Source of the DNA: a virus
Reading direction: 5' to 3' (one strand)
Virus record (IMG/VR): IMGVR_UViG_3300017991_000003
Span: 96,001 to 160,000 of that record
Length of the DNA stretch: 64,000 nt
In this document: positions 1-63,842 of the stretch, piece by piece
Layout of the letters: the number at the start of each line of letters is the position of its first letter
Position numbering within the stretch: the stretch's first letter is position 1
The notes under the pieces: generated by a model
What the model was told of the DNA's origin: nothing
The model's input: only the letters and a program-made list of their open reading frames with translations
Database searches by the model: none
Position numbers and translations under genes: made by a program

Positions 1-549
1 GACCAGGAGGCTCCGGGGGCGGAGGTTGATGTTCAGATTGGAGGCTATGCCCCGTAGCACCGGTGGACGGGACCGGGCCGCGTGGACGGCGAAGGCGATT
101 GAGGCTAGCCGGTGGTTGTTGTCGGCCGCAGACGGTGTGGTGGTGGCGGGGTTGTGCTTGCGGAGCGGGTCCGTGTCGGGGACCGGGTCGGGCAGCACCA
201 GGGGACCTACGCCGTTTTTGGCCAATCGGTGGTAAAGGCTTAGAGCTGCCAAAGCCCCGAGTCCCATAGCCGGCAGCAATGCGCGGTTGGAGACTCGAGC
301 GGGGCGTGGTGCGTCGACTGAGTCGGTCGACCACCAGGCGGACAGCCCTTCACGAACGGGCCCTTCATAGAGGGGCCACGTCTTCGTCAAGGCATCAATG
401 ACGGGGACGTACATTCAGATCCGGATAGGGAGGTGGAGATGTGTTCGTGTCGGCAAACAGTGGCTCACAGGACTCATGCCATGTCTGTTAGGTCTTTTCA
501 TGCGGGCCCCCAGGCGCTATCCTGAGCCTGTCAACAACTGGAGACGACC

Positions 550-1218
550 ATGTCGCAACGACCCACAGGTTCTCGCCCCGCCCCGCGCGGCTCGATGATG
601 TCCGCTGACGCCGCTGCCGCCGACGTGCGGGCTCGGCAAGAAGCCGCAGCCCAGGAGCAGCTACAGCAGCAGGCCCAGGCGGCCAATGAGGCTCCCTCTG
701 AGGAGCAGACCGAGCTCGACGAGGCCATCAGCTCCCAGATCCCCAAGGAGGTTCAAACCTCCCGCGGGATGCGCCCCTACGCCCAGTTCAAGAAGGAGTT
801 CGACGAGGTCTATGAGCAGGTCCGTGACAAGGACCACCTGCTCTCTGGTCGAGTGACATACTCGACCGAGCTGGCTGGTCTTCCTATCACCATCCAGAGC
901 CTGCGCCAACGGGACCGGCGGCTGCTGGCGGCCTGGGCCCCTGACGCCCGGGATGAGCATCGGGCATTCATGGATGGGGAGTTCCAGTACCGCTCCCGCC
1001 TGATGGTCCTGTCCCTGGTCCGGGTTGGGGATGTGGAGTTCCCGAGCCTGCCGATCAAGACGGATCCGGAATCTTGGGAGAAGCAGGACCCGATCCAGCA
1101 GGCCCTGTCCTACGTTGAAGACTGGGACGAGACCCTGTTCAACGTGATCTTCGGGCTCCTATCTGACCTCGAGACCGCCAAGCACTTCGCGCTGCTGGAG
1201 AACCTGGGAAACCCCTAG
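550..1218 (+). CDS. hypothetical protein (222 aa)
   Basis: ORF track; ATG at 550; Q/E/A-rich N-terminal region; no recognisable motif. Confidence 0.5.
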   Translation: MSQRPTGSRPAPRGSMMSADAAAADVRARQEAAAQEQLQQQAQAANEAPSEEQTELDEAISSQIPKEVQTSRGMRPYAQFKKEFDEVYEQVRDKDHLLSGRVTYSTELAGLPITIQSLRQRDRRLLAAWAPDARDEHRAFMDGEFQYRSRLMVLSLVRVGDVEFPSLPIKTDPESWEKQDPIQQALSYVEDWDETLFNVIFGLLSDLETAKHFALLENLGNP

Positions 1219-1265
1219 CCACCCCGCTCGCGTACTACCGAGTCCGCCTGCTGCTGCGGGGCGGG

Positions 1266-1559
1266 GTGGATCTAGCGGAGTTCTCCTTCCTCGAGCAGCA
1301 AGACTTCATCGAGTACGAGCGGAAGGAGCAGGCGATGCGGTTCGTCGAGCAGGCGACCCAGATCTACGCCACCGCCAAGGATACGGAAAGTGCTAAGGCC
1401 CTCGTTGAGCGGCTCCGGGAGGAGCTCTTCATCGGCCAGGCCCAGGCCAAAGCTGAGCGCACCAAGCGTCTGAGTGACGAGCTGGTCGAGGCGATCCACA
1501 AGACCTATTCGATCACTACGGCCGGCGGAGCCGCTATCCTTGAGGTGAGCAATGACTGA
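1266..1559 (+). CDS. hypothetical protein (97 aa)
   Basis: ORF track; apparent GTG start; 3' end overlaps next start (ATGA). Confidence 0.35.
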   Translation: MDLAEFSFLEQQDFIEYERKEQAMRFVEQATQIYATAKDTESAKALVERLREELFIGQAQAKAERTKRLSDELVEAIHKTYSITTAGGAAILEVSND

Positions 1560-2112
1560 ATCTTTCACCTCCCAGGTCCTCCGGCAGACCATCAAGCAGG
1601 TGCGGGCCGGGTCTCGAGACCTGACCAGCACCCGGCTTGAGCCTTACTACCGAGGGACGCGGCGCCTCTCGGCGGAGGAGGTGGCCAGCCGAGCCGCGGC
1701 CTCGGCCGCTTTTCGGCAGGAGGCTGGATTCCGACCTCTCTCCACGGCTGAGGCGGCCCAGCAGATCGGGGACAGCGGGGGCCGGGCCCTGTTCCTGACC
1801 CTCATGAGCGGGCTGGGACTGGAGCGTGAGTACGACGAGGACGTCGTCTCTCAGGATGCTGTGGAGGGGGTCCCGGATCTCGGGGACCGGACGACCTTTG
1901 CGGACACCAAAGCCGCCTCAGGCGCCTCGCTGACGGTCCAGGAGGCCCGTGCCGGCCTGCGGGCGGTCGAGGGCCTAGCCAGCCGCCTCCCCACGGGCGG
2001 GCAGGTCAAGCACATCCTTGAGCCCGCGCAGCCGGCCCTGGCGGATGATGATTCCGTGGTCCAGGAGCGGCTCGAGAAGATGTGGGACTACGTCCGCGAC
2101 CTGTTGCCGTAG
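1552..2112 (+). CDS. hypothetical protein (186 aa)
   Basis: ORF track; ATG start overlapping upstream stop. Confidence 0.5.
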   Translation: MTESFTSQVLRQTIKQVRAGSRDLTSTRLEPYYRGTRRLSAEEVASRAAASAAFRQEAGFRPLSTAEAAQQIGDSGGRALFLTLMSGLGLEREYDEDVVSQDAVEGVPDLGDRTTFADTKAASGASLTVQEARAGLRAVEGLASRLPTGGQVKHILEPAQPALADDDSVVQERLEKMWDYVRDLLP

Positions 2113-2163
2113 GTCCGGTCGGAGCGGGGGTTTATACTCCTAGCAGGCGTAGGAGCCGCTTCT

Positions 2164-2186
2164 CTGGCACTGGGTGCCAGTGCCAG
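2164..2186. repeat. palindromic element copy 1 (CTGGCACTGG-GTG-CCAGTGCCAG), perfect 10-bp arms
   Basis: read directly; lies 7 bp upstream of ATG 2193. Confidence 0.8.
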
Positions 2187-2192
2187 TAAACC

Positions 2193-4247
2193 ATGCCCGA
2201 CCCCTATCCGAACCAGAACCAGGCGCTGTACGCCCTCCAGCAGCGGATCCAGGCCCAGCAGCAGCAGCAAATGCGGGCTGAGTCCATGGCCGTGGGGGGC
2301 ACGAACTCCATGGCCACTGAGTCCATGCGGGTCTCGATGATGCTGCAACAGCAGCAGCTTCAGCTCCAGATGCAGCAGCAGATGCAGCAGCTGCGCTCGT
2401 CCATGTACGGGACGTTCACGGCTGGGGCGGGCGCCGCATCCCCGGTCATGCGCCAGAACTTCGGCTCTCTGGTGATGGGGGCTGGGGTGGCTCGGGGCGT
2501 CAACACGATGACCGGCGGGCTCCTATACCCGGACTACAACTACCATTGGGGCCTCACCCGGGCTCGGATGGAGCAGGACGCGTCGGACGAGCTCCGTCAG
2601 CGGATGTTCAGCGATGTCGGGAACGAGTTGATCGCTGGCCTGGTCCCGGACGTGATCCGACGCCGGACCGGGGCGGCCTTCGCAGGCTCGAGGCCTGAGT
2701 TTGTGCGGGCAGCTTATGCTCGCTACTCCGGTTTGCGGGGCGGGGACGTGGCCGCGTTCGGCGGTGGAGGTAACGTTGACGGACCTGGTCTGCGATTGCG
2801 GGCTGACGCGACACAGAGCTCAGCGCGGGCGTTCGAGGCCGGGCTTTTGAACCTCAACCGCCGGCTTGGGTATGCCCTCGGTAGCGATGAGGTGAGCATG
2901 CTCCAGGACGTCACGGCAGGCCTCTCGGTCCACCAGGCCTTCCGAGGTCAGCGCGCTGGGGAGTCGGTCCTTGCCTCGGATAACCGCCAGGTTCAGAGCC
3001 TGATTAGCAGCATTCATGACCTGAGTCGTGCTCTCCAGCTGAACGTTGATCAAACGCGCGAGATGGTGAACATGGGCCGGCAGCACGGCTTGATGCCTAA
3101 CAGCTCGGCGTTCCAGGCTCTGGGAGCCATCGGCCAGGGCGGAAACCTGATCCAGATGAGCAACGCGGATCGGGCCCGGTACGCTATGCCGATCATGGCT
3201 CAGGCCCGCGGGATGGGCATGGACGCGGTCACCGCAGTCAACCGGCGGTTCGGTAGTGCGGAGGGCGTCCTAGGCCGCTACCGGGCTGGCCTCATGTCTG
3301 ATGCGCAGCTGTTCCGATTCGGCGGGACCAGTGAGGACGACGCCGCGATGCGCGTCGCGGAGTATCAAGAGCGGCTCGGTCTGGGATACGCCTCGCGGTT
3401 CGGAGGCAGTCTTGGGGCACTCTCCTATGCGGGGCAGTCTGTCGGAGGTGCTATCAGCACCGGGGCCCGGTTGGGTGCGGTTCTTGGATCCAACCCTCTG
3501 GCAGGTTTGCGTGCTTCTATGAGTGGGGCGGTGCGCTCGAACATGGCAGGCTCGATGCAGATGGATGCTTACGCCTATGCGCAGGATGCCTACCGCATCG
3601 GCGAATCGATTCAACCGGGCGGCGGTGAGGTACTTGCCGCTCGAGTATTCGGCCAGATGATCGGTGAGTCTGACCCGGTTCAGGCTATGAACATGTATCG
3701 GCAAATTGCCGGTGAGGTCGGCGCTGTCCAGCGTGGTACGTCGCTCAGTGGGGCAGAGTCTCTGCGGTTTGTCCGTACCCGTCGAATGATGCAGCAGGTG
3801 ACCGGCGAAGCCCCGGATATGTTGGATACAGCTAGGCTGTATCAATCTTTGGCGGGACGGGATGTGACCGCGGTGAGTGTTGCCCGGGCGCTAGCCCTCT
3901 CGGGAGCAGGCAGCAACACGCAGACGTCGCGCGAGTCTATCAACAGTGGCTATCGACAGGCGTCCGTGGATAAGTTCCGAAAGCTGATTACGGGACAGAC
4001 GGATCCGTCGCTCCTAGCCGTGATTGCCGAGATCTCCAACCTAGATGGGACGGGACTATCGGTGGATGTTCTTCAGGACATGGCCATCAACAAGAACAGC
4101 TCTGGGTGGAACACCGACGCTGTCAGTGTTCGGGAGCTCCTGACGATGGATCAGTTCCTCGGTAACTTTGGGAAGATCAACAAGAACCCAGACAAGCCCC
4201 CGAGCGGGACTGAGAACAATCCGATCTACGTGAAGACGGTGAGCTGA
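2193..4247 (+). CDS. large hypothetical protein (684 aa), poly-Q/M-rich N-terminus, G/A/S-rich; possible virion or morphogenesis protein
   Basis: ORF track; ATG 2193; long uninterrupted frame; function is a guess from size and composition only. Confidence 0.6.
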   Translation: MPDPYPNQNQALYALQQRIQAQQQQQMRAESMAVGGTNSMATESMRVSMMLQQQQLQLQMQQQMQQLRSSMYGTFTAGAGAASPVMRQNFGSLVMGAGVARGVNTMTGGLLYPDYNYHWGLTRARMEQDASDELRQRMFSDVGNELIAGLVPDVIRRRTGAAFAGSRPEFVRAAYARYSGLRGGDVAAFGGGGNVDGPGLRLRADATQSSARAFEAGLLNLNRRLGYALGSDEVSMLQDVTAGLSVHQAFRGQRAGESVLASDNRQVQSLISSIHDLSRALQLNVDQTREMVNMGRQHGLMPNSSAFQALGAIGQGGNLIQMSNADRARYAMPIMAQARGMGMDAVTAVNRRFGSAEGVLGRYRAGLMSDAQLFRFGGTSEDDAAMRVAEYQERLGLGYASRFGGSLGALSYAGQSVGGAISTGARLGAVLGSNPLAGLRASMSGAVRSNMAGSMQMDAYAYAQDAYRIGESIQPGGGEVLAARVFGQMIGESDPVQAMNMYRQIAGEVGAVQRGTSLSGAESLRFVRTRRMMQQVTGEAPDMLDTARLYQSLAGRDVTAVSVARALALSGAGSNTQTSRESINSGYRQASVDKFRKLITGQTDPSLLAVIAEISNLDGTGLSVDVLQDMAINKNSSGWNTDAVSVRELLTMDQFLGNFGKINKNPDKPPSGTENNPIYVKTVS

Positions 4248-4948
4248 TGGGGAGCATCGACGACGTCCTGTCTGGCACCGGCCCCGACGATACGGATCTG
4301 ACCCAGGGTCCGCAGGTGTCGAGCTCGGATGATTACGAGATCGTGCTTGGGTACGATCCTGCGGATTATCGCCACCTGGGTGCGGCGATGGGGGCGGAGT
4401 ACGACAAGGTCCCTGCCACGCTGGTAGTTCGCGACATCGGAGACGCGGCCACGGCGCAGGAAGGGATCATCGATGCAGCCAGCACAGCGTTGGCTCAAGT
4501 ACTGCCCTTCCCGCTCGGTCTGGTAGCTAATGCTGGGCTCGAGATCGCGCTCTCGCCGATCGTATTCATCACAGACAAGCTGATCCTTACCAGCGCGGTC
4601 GAGCCTCGCAGCGCCCGATCGGCTATGGTGATGAGCTTCAATCAGCCGACGGTCTACACGTCGGGCATGCAGCCCTACATTTTCCGGTACGCGGGTCACG
4701 TGTTGATCAACGAGCTGGATGGGGACGGGCGCAACCAGTTCTACGCTGCCTACCGGGAGTACCTGCGCGCCTCAGCTAGCCTGGTCGGGGCGGAGCGGCA
4801 GACCATGCCGTGGGTCGTAGAGCTCACCTTCCGAGATATGTTCCGCGCCGGGTATGTGGTCGACCTGTCGATGTCGATCAACGCAGCAGAGCCTAGCAAG
4901 GCTGACATCTCGTTCACCCTCTTCGTGATCGATGACCGGTTCTCCTGA
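4247..4948 (+). CDS. hypothetical protein (233 aa)
   Basis: ORF track; start overlaps upstream stop. Confidence 0.55.
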   Translation: MGSIDDVLSGTGPDDTDLTQGPQVSSSDDYEIVLGYDPADYRHLGAAMGAEYDKVPATLVVRDIGDAATAQEGIIDAASTALAQVLPFPLGLVANAGLEIALSPIVFITDKLILTSAVEPRSARSAMVMSFNQPTVYTSGMQPYIFRYAGHVLINELDGDGRNQFYAAYREYLRASASLVGAERQTMPWVVELTFRDMFRAGYVVDLSMSINAAEPSKADISFTLFVIDDRFS

Positions 4949-5502
4949 TGGCCTTTGAACCTCGAGACACCGAGCTGCGGGAGCGCTTCGGCGAACAGGC
5001 CCAGGAGCTCTACGAGGGCGACCGGGCGGCTGTCCGTGTCTTCCCCCTGGATGCGACAGGGGCTCTGGTTTTGACCAATCCGGTGGCCGAGTTCGATCAG
5101 CTCTTGATCGGACGAGTCGAGGAGCCGGATCGGGAGCGGGTGCAGTACAGCCAGTCGTTTGACGGCAACAAGCTCTACGCCTACGGCAACGATCACCGGG
5201 TCTATGCGATCTCCGCGGCCTTGCTCGATACGGACCTGGGGACGACGATTCAACCCCCATCAGGCAGCGAGGCGAGCGCGTGGGAAGGGCGCGGGCATCG
5301 TGACTGGGTGCAGTTCTTCGAGCAGTACGCTAGTCTGTGGGCATGCGCTCGGGATCGTCTGCTGGTCCAGCTGACCTACGGTCGGCGCCAAGTCTACGGG
5401 GCCTTCCTTGAGTCGACGCCCAACCTCGTGGCCTCAGCGCCGCACCGGCTGGATCTCCTGCTCTCCTTTTACGTGACCCACAGTCAGCCCATCGAGTTCT
5501 GA
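4948..5502 (+). CDS. hypothetical protein (184 aa)
   Basis: ORF track; start overlaps upstream stop. Confidence 0.55.
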   Translation: MAFEPRDTELRERFGEQAQELYEGDRAAVRVFPLDATGALVLTNPVAEFDQLLIGRVEEPDRERVQYSQSFDGNKLYAYGNDHRVYAISAALLDTDLGTTIQPPSGSEASAWEGRGHRDWVQFFEQYASLWACARDRLLVQLTYGRRQVYGAFLESTPNLVASAPHRLDLLLSFYVTHSQPIEF

Positions 5503-8500
5503 TGACTGCCGAGACCCGAGCCGGCCTCCTAGCATCCCAGTGGAAGATCTTTCTGGATGGCGTGGAGGTTCCGCACCATGGGTTCAGCATGGTCATGTCT
5601 CAGGATCAGGTCAGCGAGGTGATGCTGAGCCTGGAGCCGGACAAGATCCTGCTCGAGCTTCGGCCGCAGACGATGGTGCACATCTTCGCCAAAGATCGAT
5701 TCCCTGACCCGGCTCCTGGGCAGGAGGATGAGGAAGGTGGTGTGCAGTTTGCCAAGACCTATACCTCGGACGAGGACGAGCTCAAGGACACGTGGCACCT
5801 GTTCTGGGAGGGCGTGGCCGCTGGGCGCACCCACCAGAAATCCAAGGGCAATAGGTCCATCCAGGTTCGAGCACGAGCCTTGGTAGAGAGCCTAGAGCGC
5901 ACCCCGGCCTTCATGATGGGTATGGGAGGGATCGAGTACAGCTCTATTGCTTCCGGCAGCCGACTGCCTGCGACTGTGGCGGGTGTGATCGAGGGCGGCG
6001 GGCCTTCGTCGGTAGACACGCTCAGCCTGTTCACGCTGGCGGATCTCTTCACTAACGACGGGGAGACCGGTTCCGATGTTCCTGGCCGTGATAGCGCTAC
6101 TCCGCGGTTCGCTGAGCGCTTGATCCGCTTGATCACCTACCTCAGTAGTTACAACGGGGTGCTACGTCAGCACGTGGTCCGTGGCCGGCTCCTGAACAAG
6201 ATCGCGTCTATCCCGGATAGCATCCTCGAAGGGATCCTCGAACGATCTGTGGGCCTGAGCCTGCTGGGCGACATGCAGAACCGAATCACGTCGCGCAGCT
6301 CGGTGCTCGACATCATTCGGCAGGTGATGTCCTATGGGTTCTATCACCTGGTCCAGGTCCCTATGCCTTACCGGCCGAGTAAGCAGCCGGAGATGGGATC
6401 GATGATCCCTACTCTGACCGGGAAGCAGGATGAGGAGCAGGCTACCGCCCACCAGATTCCCTACGAGTACTACCGGAACGACTACGTGTTCGTGCCGGAG
6501 ACGTACTACGCGCTGCCGCCTCCGTGCAACTTCGTGTTCCCGGATGAGATGGCAGACCTGTCCATCGGGCGGGAGTTCCAGTCGGAGCCGACGCGGCACC
6601 TGGTACAGGACCCGCACCTAGCCTCCTTCGTTGGTAACTTCTTCTACTGGCTGGCTCCTGAGGACATCATCCGCAAGGCGCGGGAGGGTGCTGGTGATGA
6701 CGTGACCTCGGCGAACCTCTTCGCCATGGCGTCCACGTTTGGCCGCTCGATCAACGTGAGCGGGGCCACGTCACCGTACGCATACCCGGACTCCGCCGAC
6801 TTGGAGAGCGGGTCGGTGCGTAGCCTCCTTGGCGCTGTATCGGACCTAGAGCTGGAGAAGGGTATTGTCCCGAGCTTCGGGCAGAACCGGTTCGAAGCCT
6901 TGGCAGCCGCGGCGTACCTGAGCCGCACAATCCCACGCACGGAGGACCAGGCCACGGCCCAGTCGATCGAAGACTTTGCTAACCCGGAAAATGCTGCGTA
7001 CGCCGACCTGATGGCGGCGGTGGCTAACTACCAGCTTCAGCTGATGCGCTACCGGCGCCAGGGCCAGGTCTCGATGCTTGGGCACCGGTGGATCATCCCC
7101 GGGCTTCCAACCATCATCTTCGACTCGGACATCTCGTACTTTGGTCAGGTCGTGTCGACCACCTTCGTGGTCAACTCTGATGGCCAGGAGTCGACGACTC
7201 TTCAGCTGGATCGTACTCGGCCTGTTCCGAAGATGGAGATCGAGGAGATCCGAGCCGCGCTCGAGGGCCTCTCCACGAAGCTCCAAGAGCTGCAAACCCA
7301 GAAGAGCAAGGTTGCGGACCAGGCGCTGGGGCAGACGATCTCCTCGGCGCTCTCAGGCCCCCTCGCGTCTCAGACTACGCAGTACGGCGGGCTGGGCGCC
7401 AAGATCGAGCAGACTCAGTCCGCGCTCCAGAACTGGAACACGTACATCGGTGGAGATACCGTCGACCTGGTTACGACGACGGGCGCTCCGATCCAGGAGA
7501 CTCTGACGATTGAGGGCACGCAGTTCGATGGGACCGGCTTGACGACCTACTTCCAGGACCTATCGACGGAGGCTGCGGAGATTCAAGCAGGCCTGGATGA
7601 GCTTCTGGTCGATGGGGCGGCTGTCGCAAAGGCTCTCAATACTGGGGAGATCGCTGTTGGCGGATCTGCTTTCTCCACGACCCTGACCAAAGGTGACCAG
7701 ACCATCTACGCGGCGGGCAATGTCAGTCCAGCGTACTTGGCATACCTGTTCCTCGACGTCCCGGTCCTGGTTGATACGACTGGGCAGATCACAGCAGCCA
7801 AGGCGGCGTTGGGTGACGGCTTCTCGGTGTCGGGACTCAAGAGCGCGCTAGGCTCCATTGTCAACGGCGGCGCCTCCAGCGACGTGTTTACAGGTGGCGA
7901 GGCCCCGAACACCGTGGCCGGTGCCCTCGCGGTCCTGACCGTGGCGGCGACGTACTACGAGCTGGCCACGGCGGCGATTGTCGAGTGGCTTACGATTCAG
8001 AAGGACATCGCAGATTCTGGCGAGAACTTGGACTTCCTCGATCTCCCGCCCTCGACCCAGGCTGCGGCTGATCAATCCTACAAAGACCAGTACCAGACGA
8101 TCGTCGACACACTGACGAATGAGATCATCGAGGACGGCCAGAAGGTCCTTGAGGACTTCGATACCCGCTTGGACTGGCCGGCGCCCCCGGCCTTCTTCTC
8201 TGAGGACTTGATTGCCACGGAGAAGTTGGATGACCTGTACCAGACCTCTTTCGGATGTAAGCCGTTCTACACCGGCCCGTACACGGCGACAGCAACGAAC
8301 GAGACTGTAGCGGCCATCCGAGCATCCTTGACTGAGTTGGATCTTGGGGAGCTTGAGACTGAGTCGGGCCTGAGTATGCAGGATCGACTGGAGTACTACC
8401 TCGAGTATCTGTCCGGGGTCTCGGCGTTGAACAACGTCTACCCCATCCTGGAAGGGCAGGAGGAGCTGACGGACGACGTGGCCCCGCCGCCTAGCTGGCA

Positions 8501-8981
8501 TGACGTGGCGGCAGCTGGTGGTGGGCAGGCCACGCCTTTCGAGTGGGCGCATCGGACGTTCCTCAAACGAGAGGCCACGAGCTTGGGGCAGTTCCTCGAG
8601 GATCACAAGCTCGAGCTCGTGACGCAGTTTGCCGACCGACCCACCACCAAGGAGTTCTATCAGATGCGTCCGGTCTCAGGATCGCAGACGACAACCGGAG
8701 CTGGGCTGGTATTCGACGATAGCCTCTTCAGTAAGCTGGTGGATGAGAAGAAGATGACCAACCCTGCATCCACTGTGGTTAGTGATGTTCTTGAGCAGGT
8801 TCTTCCTGGACCCTTCAACGCGGTGGCCGCCTCCGCGGTAGACGCGGCTTCAAGCGATCCATTGATCCAGGAGGCTCGAGAGCAGGCCACCAACAAGTAC
8901 CTGACCACTCAAGCACGGCAGGAGTTGATCCTGTCCTATGCCCGCAAGCACTTCGGCGACCGAGGTTTCGATGGCACGTGA
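5502..8981 (+). CDS. very large hypothetical protein (1159 aa); possible structural protein
   Basis: ORF track; 3.5-kb uninterrupted frame; no catalytic motif recognised. Confidence 0.65.
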   Translation: MTAETRAGLLASQWKIFLDGVEVPHHGFSMVMSQDQVSEVMLSLEPDKILLELRPQTMVHIFAKDRFPDPAPGQEDEEGGVQFAKTYTSDEDELKDTWHLFWEGVAAGRTHQKSKGNRSIQVRARALVESLERTPAFMMGMGGIEYSSIASGSRLPATVAGVIEGGGPSSVDTLSLFTLADLFTNDGETGSDVPGRDSATPRFAERLIRLITYLSSYNGVLRQHVVRGRLLNKIASIPDSILEGILERSVGLSLLGDMQNRITSRSSVLDIIRQVMSYGFYHLVQVPMPYRPSKQPEMGSMIPTLTGKQDEEQATAHQIPYEYYRNDYVFVPETYYALPPPCNFVFPDEMADLSIGREFQSEPTRHLVQDPHLASFVGNFFYWLAPEDIIRKAREGAGDDVTSANLFAMASTFGRSINVSGATSPYAYPDSADLESGSVRSLLGAVSDLELEKGIVPSFGQNRFEALAAAAYLSRTIPRTEDQATAQSIEDFANPENAAYADLMAAVANYQLQLMRYRRQGQVSMLGHRWIIPGLPTIIFDSDISYFGQVVSTTFVVNSDGQESTTLQLDRTRPVPKMEIEEIRAALEGLSTKLQELQTQKSKVADQALGQTISSALSGPLASQTTQYGGLGAKIEQTQSALQNWNTYIGGDTVDLVTTTGAPIQETLTIEGTQFDGTGLTTYFQDLSTEAAEIQAGLDELLVDGAAVAKALNTGEIAVGGSAFSTTLTKGDQTIYAAGNVSPAYLAYLFLDVPVLVDTTGQITAAKAALGDGFSVSGLKSALGSIVNGGASSDVFTGGEAPNTVAGALAVLTVAATYYELATAAIVEWLTIQKDIADSGENLDFLDLPPSTQAAADQSYKDQYQTIVDTLTNEIIEDGQKVLEDFDTRLDWPAPPAFFSEDLIATEKLDDLYQTSFGCKPFYTGPYTATATNETVAAIRASLTELDLGELETESGLSMQDRLEYYLEYLSGVSALNNVYPILEGQEELTDDVAPPPSWHDVAAAGGGQATPFEWAHRTFLKREATSLGQFLEDHKLELVTQFADRPTTKEFYQMRPVSGSQTTTGAGLVFDDSLFSKLVDEKKMTNPASTVVSDVLEQVLPGPFNAVAASAVDAASSDPLIQEAREQATNKYLTTQARQELILSYARKHFGDRGFDGT

Positions 8982-9711
8982 TACGACTGATCGGCCGAGT
9001 AAGGCCATCCGAGACGCCCGGAAGGATACCGATCTAGGTCTGGTAGAGCGGGCGCAGAAGGGCGACAAGGAGGCGCTGAACCGGCTGATCCGTAGCCACA
9101 TGGATCTGATCCAGATGAAGGCCCGCGGGTTCCGTAACGCCCCCATCCCAATCGCGGCGATCGAGGGTGAGGGTATGCGGCTTCTGGCTTTGGCGGTTAC
9201 CAAGTTCGACCCGTCCCAGGGTGTGGCCTTCCGCACGTTCCTCGACAACTACCTGCGCGGGCTCTACCGCTACGTCAACAGCAACAAGCGCGTGGACCGG
9301 GCGCCGGAGCACAGGCACCTGCGCTTCCACCGGTACGAGGCGGTCAAGGGCCTCCTGCGGGTGGAGCATAGTCGAGAGCCCACGGTGGCCGAGCTCTCCG
9401 ATGCGTTGGGCTGGAGCCCTACGGATGTGAAGCAGATGGACCGGATGATGTCCCAGCGTAGCCTGGCGGGCAGCGGCCTCGAGAACGTCAAGGCACTGGA
9501 CCAAGCGCACAGCCGGTACCAGGAGTCGGTTGAGCTGGCGTACGCGGGGTGGACCAAGCAGCAGCAGGCTGTCTACGATCTCAGCATGGGCGCGCACGGT
9601 AAGCAGCGCCTATCATCTGTGCCGGCCATCGCCCGCACCCTTGGGATCACGGCCGACAAGGTCTACAAGATCAAGCGGGAGCTGGCCCAGGAGCTTGGTA
9701 GTTCCCTATGA
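8971..9711 (+). CDS. sigma-70 family RNA polymerase sigma factor (phage-encoded)
   Basis: internal ATG at 8971 (GAGG 8 nt upstream) preferred over ORF-track start 8938; region-2-like LVERAQKGDKEALNRLIRSHMDLI...GMRLLALAVTKFDPSQGVAFRTFLDNYLRG and region-4-like HTH VPAIARTLGITADKVYKIKRELAQEL. Confidence 0.65.
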   Translation: MARDTTDRPSKAIRDARKDTDLGLVERAQKGDKEALNRLIRSHMDLIQMKARGFRNAPIPIAAIEGEGMRLLALAVTKFDPSQGVAFRTFLDNYLRGLYRYVNSNKRVDRAPEHRHLRFHRYEAVKGLLRVEHSREPTVAELSDALGWSPTDVKQMDRMMSQRSLAGSGLENVKALDQAHSRYQESVELAYAGWTKQQQAVYDLSMGAHGKQRLSSVPAIARTLGITADKVYKIKRELAQELGSSL

Positions 9712-10019
9712 GGATTCAGGACACACCAGAGAGTCTGCGCTTCAGTCACGTCCGCCGGCGGCCTCGATCCGAGTGGCCGAACAACTGGCTCAAGGGCGGG
9801 TCGGAGCCCGGCGACATCATGCTGCTCGAGGGAGACTGGGGGAAGATCGGCGGCATCCTCTGCTTGACCAAGACAGGGCGCTACATGGCGTTGACCGTGG
9901 CCCAGGTCTTCGAAGGCGCTGAGATCGAGTGGCCTGAGCCGGGGGCTGCCTTCTCGATTCACCTCATCGGCGACGCCGTCCAGCTAAAAGTAAAAGAAGA
10001 GCCCGAAGGCCCTTCCTGA
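9708..10019 (+). CDS. hypothetical protein (103 aa)
   Basis: ORF track; ATGA overlap with sigma gene. Confidence 0.4.
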   Translation: MRIQDTPESLRFSHVRRRPRSEWPNNWLKGGSEPGDIMLLEGDWGKIGGILCLTKTGRYMALTVAQVFEGAEIEWPEPGAAFSIHLIGDAVQLKVKEEPEGPS

Positions 10020-10033
10020 GCCCCGAGAGGCTC

Positions 10034-10252
10034 TCACAGGTCGCGGACGGTGAACCCGTACTGCTGGAACGTGGACCAAGTGTACGGGCTTGCCGTGCGT
10101 TCGGCCCAGTGCTTGGAGCAGTAGTAGGTCGTCTCGGTCCGGGTCAGTGCCTTAGTGGCCGGGGCATCGCACCGACCGCAGGGGATGCTGGCCCCGCCGC
10201 AGCTGGTGGCGACTAGCACGAGGAGCGCGAGCGTGGTGAGGAATCGTCGCAT
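10034..10252 (-). CDS. small secreted Cys-rich putative lipoprotein (72 aa)
   Basis: internal ATG at 10252 by codon counting; signal peptide MRRFLTTLALLVLVATSC with lipobox-like ATSC; 6 Cys; promoter-like motif upstream. Confidence 0.45.
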   Translation of the reverse strand: MRRFLTTLALLVLVATSCGGASIPCGRCDAPATKALTRTETTYYCSKHWAERTASPYTWSTFQQYGFTVRDL

Positions 10253-10302
10253 GACTATGTCGGGTGAGGGTGGTGGTTGGGGTATACACTCCCCAGTCAC
10301 CA

Positions 10303-10313
10303 TACTCATGCCC
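10303..10313 (-). promoter_or_regulatory. promoter-like motif copy (plus strand ATACTCATGCC)
   Basis: variant of the recurring GGACTYATGMC motif; 51 bp upstream of ATG 10252. Confidence 0.4.
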
Positions 10314-10337
10314 GACAGGCTCGCCGCTCTTGCTGGT

Positions 10338-12348: not shown

Positions 12349-12396
12349 GGTGGTTGTGGGTGGTTGAGGCTCCTGTGAGCCAAATCGGGGTTCAGG

Positions 12397-12407
12397 GGAC
12401 TCATGAC
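12397..12407 (-). promoter_or_regulatory. promoter-like motif copy (GGACTCATGAC)
   Basis: 49 bp upstream of ATG 12348. Confidence 0.5.
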
Positions 12408-12528
12408 TGATTTCACCAGGAATGTAGGAGAGGCTTGCAGGCCGGGCCCACTTCGGCCTATGCTTGACATGTCGCCACTGTGACGACACTTCTGGGCCGC
12501 GGCCCACAACCCAAGAAAGAGCAAGCAC

Positions 12529-19352: not shown

Positions 19353-19421
19353 GATGGGTGTTGATGTTGGGTGGTGCAGCGGATCTAGCCCCGTCTGGGC
19401 TGGAAAGATCCCCCGCTCACC

Positions 19422-19432
19422 AGACTCTTGCC
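19422..19432 (-). promoter_or_regulatory. promoter-like motif copy, variant (AGACTCTTGCC)
   Basis: 70 bp upstream of ATG 19352. Confidence 0.35.
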
Positions 19433-19560
19433 ACACAGCCCCCTGTTTTTGGCTTTCTAGGTACCACCAGGAGGCCTAAACTGGCTGTGTGCCCTCGACG
19501 TCGACTTTCCACTACGAGCATGTCTTTGACCCGTCCCAGACCGTCCTCAAGGGGCGGTCT

Positions 19561-24908: not shown

Positions 24909-25000
24909 TATGAGGCCACCGGTGTTGATCACATCCCTAGGCCACACCCGAACTAGGTGAGAGCCGGCTCCTGCCGGCCCTTCTGTTTTTGGAACCAAGC

Positions 25001-31286: not shown

Positions 31287-31305
31287 CTGGGTGGGTGGTG
31301 GTGAT

Positions 31306-31335
31306 GGTGTCTCCGGAGTAGACATCTCCGGATCA
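31306..31335 (-). promoter_or_regulatory. conserved 5' leader element with hairpin (stem TCCGGA/TCCGGA, loop GTAGACATC)
   Basis: aligns with the 46202 and 47869 copies; stem differs by a compensatory pair of substitutions. Confidence 0.55.
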
Positions 31336-31337
31336 CT

Positions 31338-31348
31338 AAACACATGCC
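31338..31348 (-). promoter_or_regulatory. promoter-like motif copy, variant (AAACACATGCC)
   Basis: 52 bp upstream of ATG 31286. Confidence 0.4.
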
Positions 31349-31385
31349 CCACAACCCCCTCTTAGTTGCTGTTTCAGGTACCAGC

Positions 31386-36357: not shown

Positions 36358-36389
36358 GGGTAGGTGGTGGGGTAGAGGTGATCGACATG

Positions 36390-36400
36390 AGACTTATGCC
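36390..36400 (-). promoter_or_regulatory. promoter-like motif copy (AGACTTATGCC)
   Basis: 33 bp upstream of ATG 36357; terminator of the tRNA unit lies just beyond. Confidence 0.5.
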
Positions 36401-36411
36401 ACAGTCCCTGG

Positions 36412-36450
36412 TCTAAAAAGAGAGCCCAACCCGAGGGGGTTGAGCTCTCT
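36412..36450 (-). terminator. strong hairpin plus T-tract terminator ending the tRNA transcription unit
   Basis: 13-bp stem with one mismatch (GAGAGCCCAACCC / GGGTTGAGCTCTC), followed on minus strand by TTTTTAGAC. Confidence 0.6.
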
Positions 36451-37003
36451 GGAAGTGCCCGGGCCCGCCCCTTTCATCGCAGTCCAACGAGTGGGACAAG
36501 GGGGATGCCGTAAGGGCCCGGGCTTGTAGGTGCGGAGCCGTGCCAGGATCACGGCCCCGCGGTGCTGTGGAAGTAGCTTGGCCCCCCAAGGAGGTGGGAT
36601 GAGCCGCCGTAGCTACGATGAGGCTCGCAGTCGGGCATGGTGCTACCCGGCCAACAGCGTGGCGATACGCCGAGACCCGGATCGCCGCCGGATAAGGTGG
36701 CCCCCGTCGTGACGTGCTCAGCTCACGCTCGAGGGGTTGGAAGACCTGCCATCTAGGATCAGTGGGATCCCCATCCCTTTGCACTCCTCGGAGAGTGTGC
36801 CGCTCCTGCGGCTGATGTGATGGCAGGTGGAAGACACCCACAGGTAGCAAGAACCGGCCTGGATGACCTCTTCGTTGCCCTAGGACCGGGGTCAGAGCCT
36901 TCCGGGCGCGCCTGTGGGTGATTGGGAAAGCCGAGCACGTCATCAACGCCGCTTGTGCGTCTGCTTGGTTGGTGGAGACGTGTGACGCTGCTCGGCTTTT
37001 GTA

Positions 37004-37090
37004 TGGTGCAGGAAGGGGGACTCGAACCCCCACGCCCGGGTGGGCACGTGGACCTAAACCACGGGCGTCTACCGATTCCGCCACTCCTGC
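37004..37090 (-). tRNA. tRNA-Leu (anticodon TAG)
   Basis: cloverleaf read by hand on minus strand: acceptor GCAGGAG/CTTCCTGC, anticodon loop TTTAGGT, long variable arm, T-arm GGGGGTTCGAGTCCCCC, encoded CCA. Confidence 0.8.
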
Positions 37091-37164
37091 ATGTAAAGGC
37101 ATCGATGACCCGTGGGAGAGTTTCCCCACTCTGTGTTGAGCCCACAGATCATCGATGTGATTGA

Positions 37165-37250
37165 TGGTGCGGGAGGAGGGACTCGAACCCTCACGCCCGA
37201 AGGCAGTGGATTTTGAATCCACCGTGTCTACCGATTCCAACCACCCCCGC
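37165..37250 (-). tRNA. tRNA-Leu (anticodon CAA)
   Basis: acceptor GCGGGGG/CTCCCGC, anticodon loop TTCAAAA, long variable arm, T-arm GAGGGTTCGAGTCCCTC, encoded CCA. Confidence 0.8.
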
Positions 37251-37504
37251 AGAGGGAGTGCCCCGCCGGCCGGAGCCGACGGGGCGAGTGCCTGTCTTTC
37301 CAGACTGTCCGCCCCGTTCGTATCATGCGCTAGGGGCTCTCGACAGTTCACTACGCCGCCATGCGGACGTCGGTGTTGGCATTTGAAAGCCAGAAGGTAC
37401 AGACGCCACCGGGCAACTATTCTCTGCTCGTAACTATACCCGCGAGCACGTCGGGTTGAAAGGTGGGCTGCCGAGGACGCGCCTCGACAGCCCGTGGGGG
37501 ATCA

Positions 37505-38125
37505 TCAGAAGTCGGGACGCAGCGTGTCTGCCGCGATCAACGTCAACTCCGGAGCGGACGGAGCTCCGGTCACGACAGCCTGGGGATCCATCTGCGCCAC
37601 GGAGTGCAGCTCGTGCGTCTCCATGAGTCTAAGTAGCGCAAAGAATCCGTAGGCGCGCAGCTCGTCCTCTTCTGAGTCGGAGCGCGGCGCGTGCCTGATG
37701 AGGGCCCCCGGGACGAGGTCTGCGTCGGACAGCACCACCCAGTGATCTGTCCAGACAATCGGCTCCAGTTGAGGAACCAGCTGCGAAGCCACCAGGTCGG
37801 CTAGCCCTTCACTCAGCGGGAAGGGACGCTGAGGAGCGCACAGGTGCGTAAGCTCATGTGCGATCACGAAGCGCTGCCGGTACGGCGGCTGATCAAGCCA
37901 GTTCGGATGGAGCACGAGGTAGACCTCGTCCGCGGCATGGGCCACCAGAGCAAGCCTGTCGATCTCACTCGACACGCACACCTGGGGGACCACACCTCGG
38001 TCATGCCCGATCATCTGCACCACCTGTGGACGCAGTTCATCGAGCAGACCCTCAGCACGCTCGACGGCTGGGTGAGCGCTGGCGCAGGCAGCCAGCGGCA
38101 GGCAGGAGATGATCAAGGACTTCAC
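37505..38125 (-). CDS. putative lipoprotein with HExxH motif (possible secreted zinc metallopeptidase-like)
   Basis: GTG start in GTGA overlap; signal peptide MKSLIISCLPLAAC (lipobox LAAC); FVIAHELTHL. Confidence 0.5.
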   Translation of the reverse strand: MKSLIISCLPLAACASAHPAVERAEGLLDELRPQVVQMIGHDRGVVPQVCVSSEIDRLALVAHAADEVYLVLHPNWLDQPPYRQRFVIAHELTHLCAPQRPFPLSEGLADLVASQLVPQLEPIVWTDHWVVLSDADLVPGALIRHAPRSDSEEDELRAYGFFALLRLMETHELHSVAQMDPQAVVTGAPSAPELTLIAADTLRPDF

Positions 38126-46198: not shown

Positions 46199-46201
46199 GG
46201 T

Positions 46202-46243
46202 GTTGGGTGGTGAGGGTGTCTCCGGGTAGACATCCCCGGATCA
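46202..46243 (-). promoter_or_regulatory. 42-bp leader cassette GTTGGGTGGTGAGGGTGTCTCCGGGTAGACATCCCCGGATCA with hairpin
   Basis: identical over 42 bp to 47869-47910; abuts start codon. Confidence 0.6.
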
Positions 46244-46245
46244 TT

Positions 46246-46256
46246 AGACTTATGCC
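46246..46256 (-). promoter_or_regulatory. promoter-like motif copy (AGACTTATGCC)
   Basis: 48 bp upstream of ATG 46198. Confidence 0.5.
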
Positions 46257-46357
46257 CTAACCTCTCCCCCTCCTGGCGCTTTTGGTCCATACTGGGGGCA
46301 CAACTTGACGCCCTTCGGGGCCGTCTCCCACGGATAACACAACTCCAGGAGAAGAGC

Positions 46358-47868: not shown

Positions 47869-47910
47869 GTTGGGTGGTGAGGGTGTCTCCGGGTAGACAT
47901 CCCCGGATCA
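47869..47910 (-). promoter_or_regulatory. 42-bp leader cassette, second identical copy
   Basis: identical to 46202-46243. Confidence 0.6.
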
Positions 47911-47912
47911 AA

Positions 47913-47923
47913 GGACTCATGAC
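47913..47923 (-). promoter_or_regulatory. promoter-like motif copy (GGACTCATGAC)
   Basis: 45 bp upstream of ATG 47868. Confidence 0.5.
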
Positions 47924-48050
47924 AGACCCAAGAGATGGGTTTGGCCCGCTAGTCCCTGGCACACATCCCGGCCTAGGCCCTAGACTTAGGACGAACCCTA
48001 AGGGCTCTTTCTGGGCCCCAAGTCCCCTTCTAACCGGATCCTGAGACACC

Positions 48051-48324: not shown

Positions 48325-48729
48325 GTGGATCTGGGGGTCGTTCAGGTCTCTGATCAAGTCCTGACCCCGGGCCTGGGGGACGCTCCGGTCCGGGTGTCAG
48401 GTCTTCGTGCCCTCGTACAGCAGGCGGTCATCGAGCTCATCTCGAACCCCCTGCCGGAGCGAGGGCGCGGGGCTGGGCTAGCTCAGCTCGTTGCAGCCCT
48501 GCCTCCCCAGAACCAGGCACAAGCTCGTGGCACCTTTGCGCAGGCCGTGAGCTCCGCCAAGACGCACATCTTGGCCAACCAGCGCTACGCTTCCAACCTC
48601 ACCGCGAACGAGCGGCTGCAAGACATGACCCTGCTTCGGGCCGAGCTCAATGGGCTCGTCTGGGAGATCGACATCAGGATCACCAACGTAGCCGGCGAGT
48701 CCGCCACCTTTGCCCTGCCGGTCAGCTGA
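48325..48729 (+). CDS. hypothetical protein (134 aa)
   Basis: ORF track; apparent GTG start. Confidence 0.4.
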   Translation: MDLGVVQVSDQVLTPGLGDAPVRVSGLRALVQQAVIELISNPLPERGRGAGLAQLVAALPPQNQAQARGTFAQAVSSAKTHILANQRYASNLTANERLQDMTLLRAELNGLVWEIDIRITNVAGESATFALPVS

Positions 48730-49796: not shown

Positions 49797-49805
49797 GGAT
49801 TAGAG

Positions 49806-54130: not shown

Positions 54131-54149
54131 CCTCTAACCCCACAGACTC

Positions 54150-54692: not shown

Positions 54693-54715
54693 TACGATCC
54701 CACTAACGACACGTC

Positions 54716-55738: not shown

Positions 55739-55740
55739 CT

Positions 55741-63802: not shown

Positions 63803-63819
63803 ACGGACGCCTGCTCTAT

Positions 63820-63842
63820 CTGGCACTGGTACCTAGTGTCAG
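63820..63842. repeat. palindromic element copy 6 (CTGGCACT-GGTACCT-AGTGTCAG)
   Basis: overlaps stop of the HTH gene 63839-63988 and abuts the promoter-like motif of the next gene. Confidence 0.8.

What the first reader, a model, noticed from the sequence alone, without database searches (positions are those of the whole stretch)
8971..9711. Phage-encoded sigma-70-family sigma factor at the end of a large plus-strand block
Region-2-like and region-4-like segments are recognisable. It lies immediately after a run of very large ORFs (2193-8981) that may be structural, so it could redirect host RNA polymerase to phage promoters of the type described above.
Basis: partly seen in the sequence, partly recalled or inferred. 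Interest (0 to 1): 0.5.

Follow-up and report, generated by a model that had tools for sequence, protein, structure and literature searches.

The report
Divergent phage sigma factor, confirmed
The gene at 8971-9711 is a real but very divergent bacterial-type sigma factor carried by a large uncultivated phage. Phage sigma factors are a well-known way to redirect the host's RNA polymerase, so this is a new member of a known class rather than a new kind of thing.

Summary
Confirmed. ORF 8971-9711(+) encodes a 246-aa sigma-70-family protein with sigma2, sigma3 and sigma4 domains. Support: Pfam Sigma70_r3 above threshold, PHROG 351 at 8e-19, RpoS/RpoH/SigA in PDB at 1e-9 to 1e-12, and AF2 plus Foldseek hits that are all sigma factors. 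It scores far below the cut-off of every named sigma subfamily. The word-indexed search of 5.8 billion proteins found six close relatives, and their contigs yielded three more.

The contig (about 175-193 kb) is listed in IMG/VR and matches no GenBank phage.

The gene is the penultimate one of a 9-gene, 9.5-kb plus-strand operon. Its ATG overlaps the stop of a 1159-aa protein, and a ~100-aa gene follows it. This trio is conserved in six lineages of 46-63% GC. The big protein belongs to an unannotated family of about 1,166 clusters. One or a few distant members carry peptidoglycan-hydrolase domains, so "structural" is plausible but unproven.

I also found a candidate cognate promoter: CMAAAA-N16-..T..GK-CATRAGTC-NNN-TGA. 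It has 14 sites in the window against 0-1 in shuffles, and recurs in five related lineages. Thirteen sites lie upstream of minus-strand genes, mostly small. Canonical sigma-70 promoters are not enriched.

That this sigma reads this motif is inference, at about 50%. Overall: a new member of a known kind, of modest interest.

The parts
8971..9711 (+). Sigma-70-family sigma factor gene (246 aa)
9031..9288 (+). Sigma2 domain (residues ~21-106): core-binding and -10-recognition helices. Includes EGEGMRLLALAVTKFDPSQGVAFRTF and LRGLYRYVNSNKRVDR.
   Evidence: Residue-by-residue alignment to RpoS regions 2.1-2.4. AF2 helices H21-106 have pLDDT ~80-87. Invariant columns in the family alignment.
9313..9453 (+). 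Sigma3 domain (residues ~115-161)
   Evidence: Pfam Sigma70_r3 on residues 124-156, above the gathering score. Three AF2 helices at 115-161.
9454..9501 (+). Low-confidence linker (residues 162-177) in the position of region 3.2
   Evidence: pLDDT below 50. The identification rests on position only.
9502..9705 (+). Sigma4-like C-terminal helix-turn-helix domain (residues ~178-245). Putative recognition helix TADKVYKIKRELAQEL.
   Evidence: Weak alignment to RpoS region 4. TIGR02997 aligns residues 23-237 and NF005642 aligns 26-242. AF2 pLDDT is 85-90. On its own the domain is not significant against PDB sigma4.
5502..8981 (+). 1159-aa protein whose stop overlaps the sigma start. It belongs to a large unannotated family and is probably virion- or ejection-associated.
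   Evidence: The AF2 model failed (pLDDT 43.7).
550..5502 (+). Upstream genes of the same operon: 550/595-1218, 1266-1559, 1552-2112, 2193-4247, 4247-4948 and 4948-5502. All are of unknown function.
   Evidence: No family hits. Synteny is conserved in L004, L010, L012 and L013; L008 holds only the tail of the operon.
9708..10019 (+). Conserved ~100-aa gene with an ATGA overlap on the sigma stop. A candidate sigma partner or anti-sigma, by position only.
   Evidence: No family hit.
9994..10017 (.). GC-rich hairpin at the convergent end of the operon. It scores as a terminator on the minus strand.
463..502 (-). Candidate phage promoter (-36 to +4) in the divergent region upstream of the sigma operon. 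It points away from the operon, towards the 200-aa gene and the reverse-transcriptase gene.
10295..10334 (-). Candidate phage promoter upstream of the small gene 10034-10252
12390..12429 (-). Candidate phage promoter upstream of the operon 12348 to 10338
19415..19454 (-). Candidate phage promoter
20951..20990 (-). Candidate phage promoter
21962..22001 (-). Candidate phage promoter
24876..24915 (+). Candidate phage promoter, the only plus-strand-directed copy, upstream of the polymerase-exonuclease gene at 24989
31331..31370 (-). Candidate phage promoter
36383..36422 (-). Candidate phage promoter
39076..39115 (-). Candidate phage promoter
40768..40807 (-). Motif copy with no obvious downstream gene in this orientation; the exception among the 14 sites
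46239..46278 (-). Candidate phage promoter
47906..47945 (-). Candidate phage promoter
63785..63824 (-). Candidate phage promoter

Best explanation
Shown: 8971-9711 encodes a bona fide but highly divergent sigma-70-family factor of 246 aa with the three-domain build sigma2-sigma3-linker-sigma4. It lacks region 1.1 and so has group-3-like architecture. It sits on a ~175-193-kb uncultivated phage genome. It is the penultimate gene of a 9-gene, ~9.5-kb plus-strand operon and is stop/start-coupled to a 1159-aa protein upstream and a ~100-aa protein downstream. This trio is conserved in six phage lineages.

Inferred from the family: the protein binds the host's core RNA polymerase through sigma2 (beta-prime clamp helices) and sigma4 (beta flap), displaces the host sigma, and directs initiation at phage promoters.

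Inferred, at about 50%: its cognate promoter is the non-canonical two-block element found here. That element is C-34 M A-32 A A-30 A, then a 16-nt spacer carrying T-17 and G-14, then C-12 A T R A G T C-5, then NNN, then T-1 G+1 A+2. It precedes 13 gene units in the window. Twelve are minus-strand, mostly small genes, including the reverse-transcriptase unit. One is the plus-strand DNA-polymerase exonuclease unit. Each unit has a frequent 5' hairpin and a C/A-rich leader that lacks a Shine-Dalgarno sequence.

The residues that read -12 and -35 in sigma-70 are replaced here (Q437 to G, T440 to Y, W433 to N, R584 to A, R588 to Y, Q589 to K). These equivalences come from the alignment to RpoS, with sigma-70 numbering taken from memory. 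The replacements fit a promoter that has C at -12, G at -7 and an A-rich -35.
For: Sigma identity:
- Pfam Sigma70_r3 scores 30.8 bits against a cut-off of 25.3.
- PHROG 351 gives 8e-19 over residues 24-240.
- PDB gives RpoS, RpoH, SigF and SigA at 4e-9 for the single sequence and 1.7e-12 for the profile.
- The AF2 model has pLDDT 75 and is all-helical with three bundles.
- The top 50 Foldseek PDB hits are all sigma factors, over ~239 aligned columns.
- The named BFVD hits are almost all phage sigma factors.
- NCBIfam full-length alignments cover residues 23-237 and 26-242.

Phage context:
- The contig is an IMG/VR UViG.
- PHROG hits include exonuclease, ThyX and polymerase exonuclease.
- Only 19 Pfam families hit 65 ORFs, and none is a housekeeping family.

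Conserved operon.

Promoter motif:
- TCANNNGACTYATG has 15 hits against 1.5 expected.
- The two-block matrix gives 14 hits against 0-1 in shuffles.
- In an ungapped alignment of 20 sites the -35 block shows A-32 in 16 of 20 and C-34 in 15 of 20, at a canonical 16-nt spacing.
- An ATG lies 24-65 nt downstream at most of the 20 aligned sites.
- Independent sites occur in L012 and L013, in genomes of 46-49% GC.
- Canonical sigma-70 promoters total 2 against about 8.6 expected over the first 53 kb.
Against: - No experiment links this sigma to core polymerase or to the motif.
- Pfam does not detect region 4, region 2 is below threshold, and the C-terminal domain alone has no significant sigma4 hit.
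- The sigma gene lies in an operon that looks virion-related and therefore late, while the motif precedes genes that look early or middle (small ORFs, replication, reverse transcriptase). That is an awkward timing for a classical cascade.
- A host RpoH-like sigma could read a CAT-type -10 with an A-rich -35.
- Only 64 kb of the ~175-193-kb genome was seen, so other transcription factors or an RNA polymerase could lie elsewhere.
- One motif copy (40768) has no downstream gene.
Confidence: 0.75

Rival explanations
1. The protein is a sigma factor, but the CATRAGTC motif is read by something else: a host alternative sigma such as an RpoH-like factor, or another phage factor. The phage sigma would then serve a different promoter class, for example late promoters that are weakly conserved or lie outside the window.
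For: The motif resembles sigma-32-type promoters (A-rich -35, CAT at -12 to -10, similar spacing; from my own knowledge of the RpoH consensus). The sigma gene sits in a probable late or virion operon, while the motif precedes early-looking genes. No copy of the motif points into the sigma operon.
Against: The motif travels with the sigma family through lineages of 46-63% GC, which probably infect different hosts. No second conserved promoter class was found upstream of the plus-strand operons. The sigma residues at the -12 and -35 reading positions are changed in a way that fits a non-canonical motif.
Confidence: 0.3
2. The sigma is an auxiliary host-manipulating gene. It would switch on or jam a host regulon, as the sporulation-like sigma factors of Bacillus phages do, rather than drive phage genes.
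For: Such phage sigma factors exist and are non-essential for phage growth (PMC9429907). Structural neighbours include phage SigF-, SigG- and SigK-like proteins.
Against: The protein falls far below every host subfamily cut-off, 46 bits against 190-550, so it is not a recent host copy. Its fixed position in a conserved phage operon across six lineages, and a phage-wide non-canonical promoter motif, both suggest a core phage function.
Confidence: 0.1
3. The sigma works with a phage-encoded multisubunit RNA polymerase rather than with the host enzyme. The large upstream ORFs could be very divergent beta or beta-prime subunits.
For: The large upstream proteins have no detectable family. RNA polymerase subunits of phiKZ-like phages are notoriously hard to detect.
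Against: There is no NADFDGD-like catalytic motif in any frame of the window. One or a few distant members of the 1159-aa family carry cell-wall hydrolase domains, not polymerase domains. In the jumbo-phage survey, phages with their own RNA polymerase lack sigma factors and phages with sigma factors lack a polymerase (PMC7824862).
Confidence: 0.03
4. The contig is not a phage but a cellular chromosome, a plasmid or another mobile element that carries an ordinary alternative sigma factor.
For: No capsid, portal or terminase gene was recognised in the 64-kb window. There was no match to any GenBank phage at DNA level.
Against: The contig is an IMG/VR viral genome. The few identifiable genes are phage-typical. 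There are two tRNAs, dense short ORFs and no housekeeping families. The neighbouring protein family includes lysin fusions.
Confidence: 0.03

Closest known systems
Phage-encoded sigma-70-family factors that take over host RNA polymerase (Bacillus phage SPO1 gp28 and gp34; the sigma factors of 'group 2' jumbo phages; PHROG 351)
   Same: A phage gene with sigma2, sigma3 and sigma4 domains. It matches PHROG 351 at 8e-19. Its structural neighbours in BFVD are sigma factors of Bacillus, cyanobacterial and Vibrio phages. The expected mechanism is recruitment of host core polymerase to phage promoters (PMC7824862; PMC9429907).
   Different: Identity to any of them is only 14-29%. The word-indexed search of 5.8 billion proteins found six close relatives, and their contigs yielded three more. 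The gene is embedded at the 3' end of a long operon of large unknown, probably virion, proteins rather than among early or middle regulatory genes.
Bacterial group 2 and group 3 sigma factors (RpoS, RpoH/sigma-32, SigF/SigG, FliA)
   Same: These are the best sequence and structure matches. The protein shares the group-3 domain build, with no region 1.1. The candidate promoter has CAT at -12 to -10 and an A-rich -35 with a 16-nt spacer, which recalls RpoH and sporulation-sigma promoters (consensus recalled from memory).
   Different: The protein scores 40-46 bits against curated cut-offs of 190-550 bits, so it belongs to none of these subfamilies. The key DNA-reading residues are replaced. The promoter has an invariant G at -7 and a TGA start block.
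T4 gp55 (with gp33) and the other 'minimal' phage sigma factors
   Same: A phage sigma that serves non-canonical phage promoters.
   Different: gp55 is a truncated, region-2-only sigma that needs gp33 and the sliding clamp (textbook knowledge; for gp33 and minimal sigmas). This protein keeps sigma3 and a sigma4-like HTH domain, and the candidate promoter has a -35 block.
ECF (group 4) sigma factors with a co-transcribed anti-sigma
   Same: A small conserved gene is translationally coupled directly downstream of the sigma gene, which is the usual sigma and anti-sigma layout.
   Different: A sigma3 domain is present, so the protein is not an ECF sigma. The window protein has no listed match to TIGR02937, and its L010 relative scores 29.6 bits against a cut-off of 42.9. 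The downstream protein has no anti-sigma family hit and no zinc-binding anti-sigma motif or membrane segment visible by eye.

Membership tests
Sigma-70 family (bacterial-type sigma factors) | Sigma2 domain (regions 2.1-2.4: core binding, -10 recognition and melting) | tested here: met
   phmmer against PDB aligns residues 23-164 to RpoS 78-220 at E 4e-9, with the conserved EG..GL..AV.KFD...G..F.T pattern. The profile search gives 1.7e-12. Pfam Sigma70_r2 is only sub-threshold, 14.8 bits against 24.
Sigma-70 family (bacterial-type sigma factors) | Sigma3 domain (regions 3.0-3.1) | tested here: met
   Pfam PF04539 scores 30.8 bits against a gathering score of 25.3, on residues 124-156. It is also precomputed for 5 of the 6 close relatives.
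Sigma-70 family (bacterial-type sigma factors) | Sigma4 domain (regions 4.1-4.2: HTH, -35 recognition, beta-flap binding) | tested here: met
   Single-stretch alignments to TIGR02997 (residues 23-237, model positions 63-292 of 298) and NF005642 (26-242). PHROG 351 covers 24-240. AF2 predicts a C-terminal helical domain with pLDDT 85-90. Foldseek aligns ~239 columns to sigma factors in holoenzyme structures. Caveat: there is no Pfam Sigma70_r4 hit, and the domain alone has no significant PDB sigma4 hit; the best match is an invertase HTH at E 0.07.
Sigma-70 family (bacterial-type sigma factors) | Binds core RNA polymerase and confers promoter-specific initiation | not testable with these tools
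   Needs biochemistry (pull-down, in vitro transcription).
Named sigma subfamilies (RpoD/SigA, RpoS, RpoH, FliA/WhiG, SigB/F/G, ECF) | Score above the curated NCBIfam cut-off of the subfamily model | tested here: not met
   The best score is 46.1 bits against 384.5 (TIGR02997). FliA scores 40.6 against 189.6, SigBFG 40 against 234, and RpoH 37-40 against 241-323.
ECF (group 4) sigma factors | Two-domain build (sigma2 and sigma4 only, no sigma3) | tested here: not met
   A sigma3 domain is present.
Phage-encoded sigma factors (PHROG 351) | Significant match to the phage sigma profile, and location on a viral genome | tested here: met
   PHROG 351 at 8.2e-19. The contig is IMGVR_UViG_3300018080_003942, and a relative lies on a 183-kb UViG.
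Sigma-70-type promoter (for the candidate motif) | Two conserved blocks about 16-18 bp apart, a purine start about 7 nt after the -10 block, and location upstream of genes in the sense orientation | tested here: met
   The ungapped alignment of 20 sites has blocks at -34 to -29 and -17 to -5 with a 16-nt spacer, and T-1 G+1 A+2 nearly invariant. An ATG follows 24-65 nt downstream at most of the 20 sites. Transcription starts were not measured.
Sigma-70-type promoter (for the candidate motif) | Match to the housekeeping consensus TTGACA-N17-TATAAT (A-11 and T-7) | tested here: not met
   A-11 is kept, but -12 is C and -7 is G in 20 of 20 sites. Canonical promoters are not enriched in the window.

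The most novel reading that the evidence does not exclude
The sigma factor is made with, and packaged alongside, the virion or ejection proteins of its operon. It would be delivered into the next host cell with the DNA, so that host core polymerase is captured at once for the non-canonical CATRAGTC promoters that precede the early-looking gene units. This would be a sigma-factor counterpart of the injected RNA polymerases of N4 and phiKZ.

This reading would explain three observations. The sigma gene is stop/start-coupled to a ~1,100-aa protein of a lysin-associated family in six lineages. No canonical host promoters are evident. The motif sits in front of replication, reverse-transcriptase and small-gene units rather than structural genes.
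Probability: 0.1. Interest if true: 0.75.

Novelty: new member of a known kind. Interest (0 to 1): 0.35.

Why it matters
Phage sigma factors are a classic take-over device, and about 13% of reference phage genomes carry one (PMC9429907). The gene class itself is therefore not news.

What is useful here is the set of pieces needed for a direct test in an almost wholly uncharacterised clade of ~150-190-kb environmental phages:
- a divergent sigma with altered DNA-reading residues;
- a sharply defined candidate promoter with 14 copies in the window;
- a conserved three-gene module of large protein, sigma and ~100-aa protein.

If the pairing holds, it adds a new orthogonal sigma and promoter pair, and a way to predict transcription units in this clade from sequence. 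If the sigma proves to be virion-delivered, that would be a new infection strategy.

Tried and rejected
1. AF2 model of the 1159-aa upstream protein, built from 6 sequences. It reached pLDDT 43.7 and is unusable, so no fold search was run on it.
2. Pfam, PHROGs, NCBIfam, PDB sequence searches and tblastn against phages for the operon proteins all returned nothing. The weak PHROG 'tail protein' hits (E 0.002-0.008) for the 527-aa protein of L010 are not reliable.
3. Reading the motif in the opposite orientation (TCANNNGACTYATG), either as a promoter of leaderless mRNAs or with its ATG as a start codon. I rejected this because the distances to start codons are inconsistent, and the reverse orientation places a gene 24-65 nt downstream at most of the 20 aligned sites and reveals a -35 block.
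4. A sigma-54-like reading of TGGCA...TGA, or of the CTGGCACTGGGTGCCAG palindrome at 2160-2185. The spacing is wrong (by eye).
5. A second promoter class for the plus-strand operons. I found only a weak TTTTCA-N17/18-TATSCT candidate upstream of the sigma operon, shared by the window and L004, and it is not convincing.
6. A divergent RNA polymerase in the window. No NADFDGD-like motif was found.
7. Host assignment through ThyX. The only hit was a 19-kb contig of a Saccharibacteria MAG at 49% identity, which is uninformative.
8. Template and variable repeats of a diversity-generating retroelement near the reverse-transcriptase gene. No direct repeat of 40 nt or more was found in L001 1-12000.
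9. Near-identity DNA search against GenBank phages. No match.
Full report
**1. The observation**

The + strand carries an ORF from ATG 8971 to TGA 9709-9711 (246 aa). The frame is already open from ATG 8938, but public gene calls and the identical database protein P0001 start at 8971. The ATG overlaps the stop of the preceding 1159-aa ORF, as ATGGCACGTGA with the stop at 8979-8981. Codon-position GC (GC3 0.82) is typical of coding sequence in this 62.7% GC window.

**2. Is it a sigma factor?**

Yes. The evidence by source:
- Pfam finds Sigma70_r3 above its gathering score (30.8 against 25.3 bits, residues 124-156). Sigma70_r2 is below threshold (E 0.026, residues 39-92).
- PHROG 351 'RNA polymerase sigma factor' matches at 8.2e-19 over residues 24-240.
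- phmmer against all PDB chains returns sigma factors almost exclusively, 59 of the 60 listed (RpoS 4e-9, SigF, RpoH, SigA, RpoD). The residue-level alignment covers regions 1.2-3.1, and there is a weak second stretch on region 4.
- A profile of the six close relatives raises the RpoS match to 1.7e-12.
- AF2 on that alignment gives pLDDT 75.4. The model is all-helical, with three bundles at residues ~21-106, 115-161 and 178-245, and low-confidence linkers at 108-113 and 162-177.
- The 50 best Foldseek hits in the PDB are all sigma factors, over 220-270 aligned columns. TM-scores of about 0.3 are low, probably because free and polymerase-bound sigma differ in domain arrangement.
- In the viral structure library the named hits are almost all phage sigma factors, at 11-22% identity.

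Region 4 is the weakest part. There is no Pfam r4 hit, and the C-terminal 70 aa alone give only an invertase HTH at E 0.07. Against this, full-length RpoD/SigD models align in one stretch to residues 237-242, and the TxDKVYKIKRxL helix lines up with the 4.2 helix TRERVRQIQ of RpoS.

**3. Which kind of sigma?**

It has no region 1.1 and keeps sigma3, so the build is group-3-like and not ECF. Every NCBIfam subfamily model hits at 1e-12 to 1e-9 but at 40-46 bits, against cut-offs of 190-550 bits. It therefore belongs to the superfamily but to no named subfamily.

By the RpoS alignment, with sigma-70 numbering from memory, several DNA-reading residues are replaced:
- the -12 readers Q437 to G and T440 to Y;
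- the melting wedge W433 to N;
- the -35 readers R584 to A, R588 to Y and Q589 to K.

The replacement residues are themselves largely conserved within the family.

**4. Where is it?**

The word-indexed search of 5.8 billion proteins found six close relatives at 45-100% identity. Their contigs yielded three more: L010 (55%), L012 (49%) and L013 (46%). The identical gene lies on metagenomic contigs of 92-193 kb, and one of them is an IMG/VR viral genome. No GenBank phage matches at DNA level, and tblastn finds only remote phage sigma factors at 24-29% identity.

Of 65 window ORFs, the few recognisable functions are phage-typical: exonuclease, ThyX, polymerase exonuclease, an HD phosphohydrolase, methyltransferases and Cpn10. 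Nothing is a housekeeping family, and no other sigma family was hit. There are two tRNA-Leu genes.

**5. The operon**

Sigma is gene 8 of 9 in a plus-strand unit, 550/595-10019. Stop/start overlaps occur at 4247, 4948, 5502, 8971/8981 and 9708/9711. The unit ends at a GC-rich hairpin at 9994-10017.

The order [~190][~680-810][~230][~185][~1000-1160]-sigma-[~100] recurs in L004, L012 and L013. L010 has it with a 527-aa gene in place of the ~230 and ~185 pair. L008 holds only the tail of the operon. In L013 a metallophosphoesterase gene is inserted before the ~100-aa gene. The sigma start lies within 0-11 nt of the upstream stop in every case.

None of these proteins hits Pfam, PHROGs, NCBIfam or PDB. 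An exhaustive profile search shows that the 1159-aa protein belongs to a large unannotated family: 1,166 representative clusters at E up to 1e-3, conserved mainly over the N-terminal ~600 aa. Among 46 distant members, one or a few carry endolysin, SLT or GH19 domains. P0122, for example, has an SLT domain at residues 493-538. Such fusions are typical of tail-tip or ejection proteins, so 'structural' is plausible but weakly supported. The AF2 model of this protein failed.

**6. A candidate cognate promoter**

A k-mer screen of intergenic DNA turned up GACTCATG. It occurs 8 times against 2.8 expected, always outside or at the very edge of called genes. The longer form TCANNNGACTYATG has 15 hits with at most one mismatch, against 1.5 expected.

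Read on the opposite strand, 20 sites (14 in the window, 6 in relatives) align without gaps. The conserved positions are:
- C-34 in 15 of 20 sites, A-32 in 16 of 20 and A-30 in 12 of 20;
- a 16-nt spacer carrying T-17 (16 of 20) and G-14 (20 of 20);
- C-12 A-11 T-10 R A-8 G-7 T-6 C-5, nearly invariant;
- NNN, then T-1 G+1 A+2, also nearly invariant.

This is the geometry of a sigma-70-family promoter with a pyrimidine-purine start. It is not the housekeeping consensus, because -12 is C and -7 is G.

In this orientation an ATG follows 24-65 nt downstream at most of the 20 sites. The stretch between usually holds a short hairpin, with one compensatory change between the 46239 and 31331 copies, and then a C/A-rich leader.

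A two-block matrix finds 14 window sites against 0-1 in shuffles. It also finds sites not used for training in L012 and L013, whose GC is 46-49%. The motif block is the only invariant block in the divergent region upstream of the sigma operon across four lineages. Canonical TTGACA/TATAAT promoters total 2 against about 8.6 expected over the first 53 kb.

Because the motif travels with the sigma family across genomes of very different composition, a phage-encoded reader is the most economical explanation, and this sigma is the only candidate seen. This remains inference.

**7. A timing puzzle**

Thirteen of the 14 copies point along the minus strand, and 12 of those precede a minus-strand gene unit. 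These are mostly small genes and include the unit holding the reverse-transcriptase gene just left of the window. One copy drives the plus-strand polymerase-exonuclease unit. None drives the sigma operon.

If the operon is late and virion-related, a classical early-to-late cascade does not fit easily. Three options remain:
- the operon is not late;
- the motif is read by a host RpoH-like sigma, and the phage sigma serves other promoters;
- the sigma is packaged and injected.

**8. Comparison and novelty**

Phage sigma factors are well known. About 13% of reference phage genomes have one (PMC9429907), and large phages without their own polymerase typically do (PMC7824862). This is therefore a new and very divergent member of a known kind. 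The conserved module of large protein, sigma and ~100-aa protein, together with the sharply defined non-canonical promoter, are the points worth testing.

**Verdict**
- Novelty: new member of a known kind.
- Interest: 0.35.

Noticed in passing
Window-wide, e.g. upstream of the minus-strand starts at 10252, 12348, 19352, 20918, 36357, 46198 and 47868, and the plus-strand start at 54150: Most genes lack a Shine-Dalgarno sequence. First genes of transcription units instead have C/A-rich leaders such as CACCCTCACCACCCAACACC, which resemble the 3' end of 16S rRNA rather than complementing it. Internal genes start at ATGA or GTGA stop/start overlaps. This hints at an SD-independent host or translation mode.
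   Followed up: partly
L001 1-1444, just left of the window; the 200-aa gene reaches window ~1-414 on the minus strand: A reverse-transcriptase gene (Pfam RVT_1, 367 aa) sits downstream of a 200-aa gene, and the motif copy at 463-502 points into this unit. It may be a diversity-generating retroelement. No template or variable repeat was found within the 12 kb available.
   Followed up: partly
9708-10019 (+): A conserved ~100-aa protein (WPxNWL...PGD..LL.G.WG..GGIL) is translationally coupled to the sigma stop in four of the six lineages and lies just downstream in the other two. It has no family hit. It could be a sigma partner or an anti-sigma.
   Followed up: partly
19440-19450, 31375-31385 and 63810-63825; also L004 ~19690: A subset of the motif promoters carries a palindromic TGGTACCTA element about 25-26 nt upstream of the 20-nt core of the motif (about -45). 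It may be the binding site of an additional regulator.
   Followed up: no
46199-46260, 47869-47925 and 31300-31350: Three copies of a ~50-nt repeat cover the promoter core, a hairpin (CCGGGGATGTCTACCCGG or CCGGAGATGTCTACTCCGG, with a compensatory change) and a CACC-rich leader.
   Followed up: partly
37004-37090 and 37165-37250 (-), within the 36358-38121 stretch where my ORF filter called no gene: Two tRNA-Leu genes (anticodons TAG and CAA). The rest of this 1.76-kb stretch is unexplained.
   Followed up: no
12348 (-) and 21935 (-); also L004 ~12690 and L012 ~13937: Small paralogous genes with similar N-termini (MRIINLLP, MTNIVNLLP, MRNVKIINLT) each sit directly behind a copy of the promoter motif.
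   Followed up: no
2160-2185 (+), about 10 nt upstream of the 684-aa gene: A perfect 10-bp inverted repeat, CTGGCACTGG-GTG-CCAGTGCCAG, lies inside the operon. A related CTGGCACTGGTACC occurs at ~63812. It could be an RNA hairpin or an operator.
   Followed up: no
48729-58029 (+): A second block of large ORFs (355, 1262, 180, 340 and 762 aa). Four of the five have unusually high second-position GC, and none of those scanned has a family hit. They are perhaps tail fibres.
   Followed up: no
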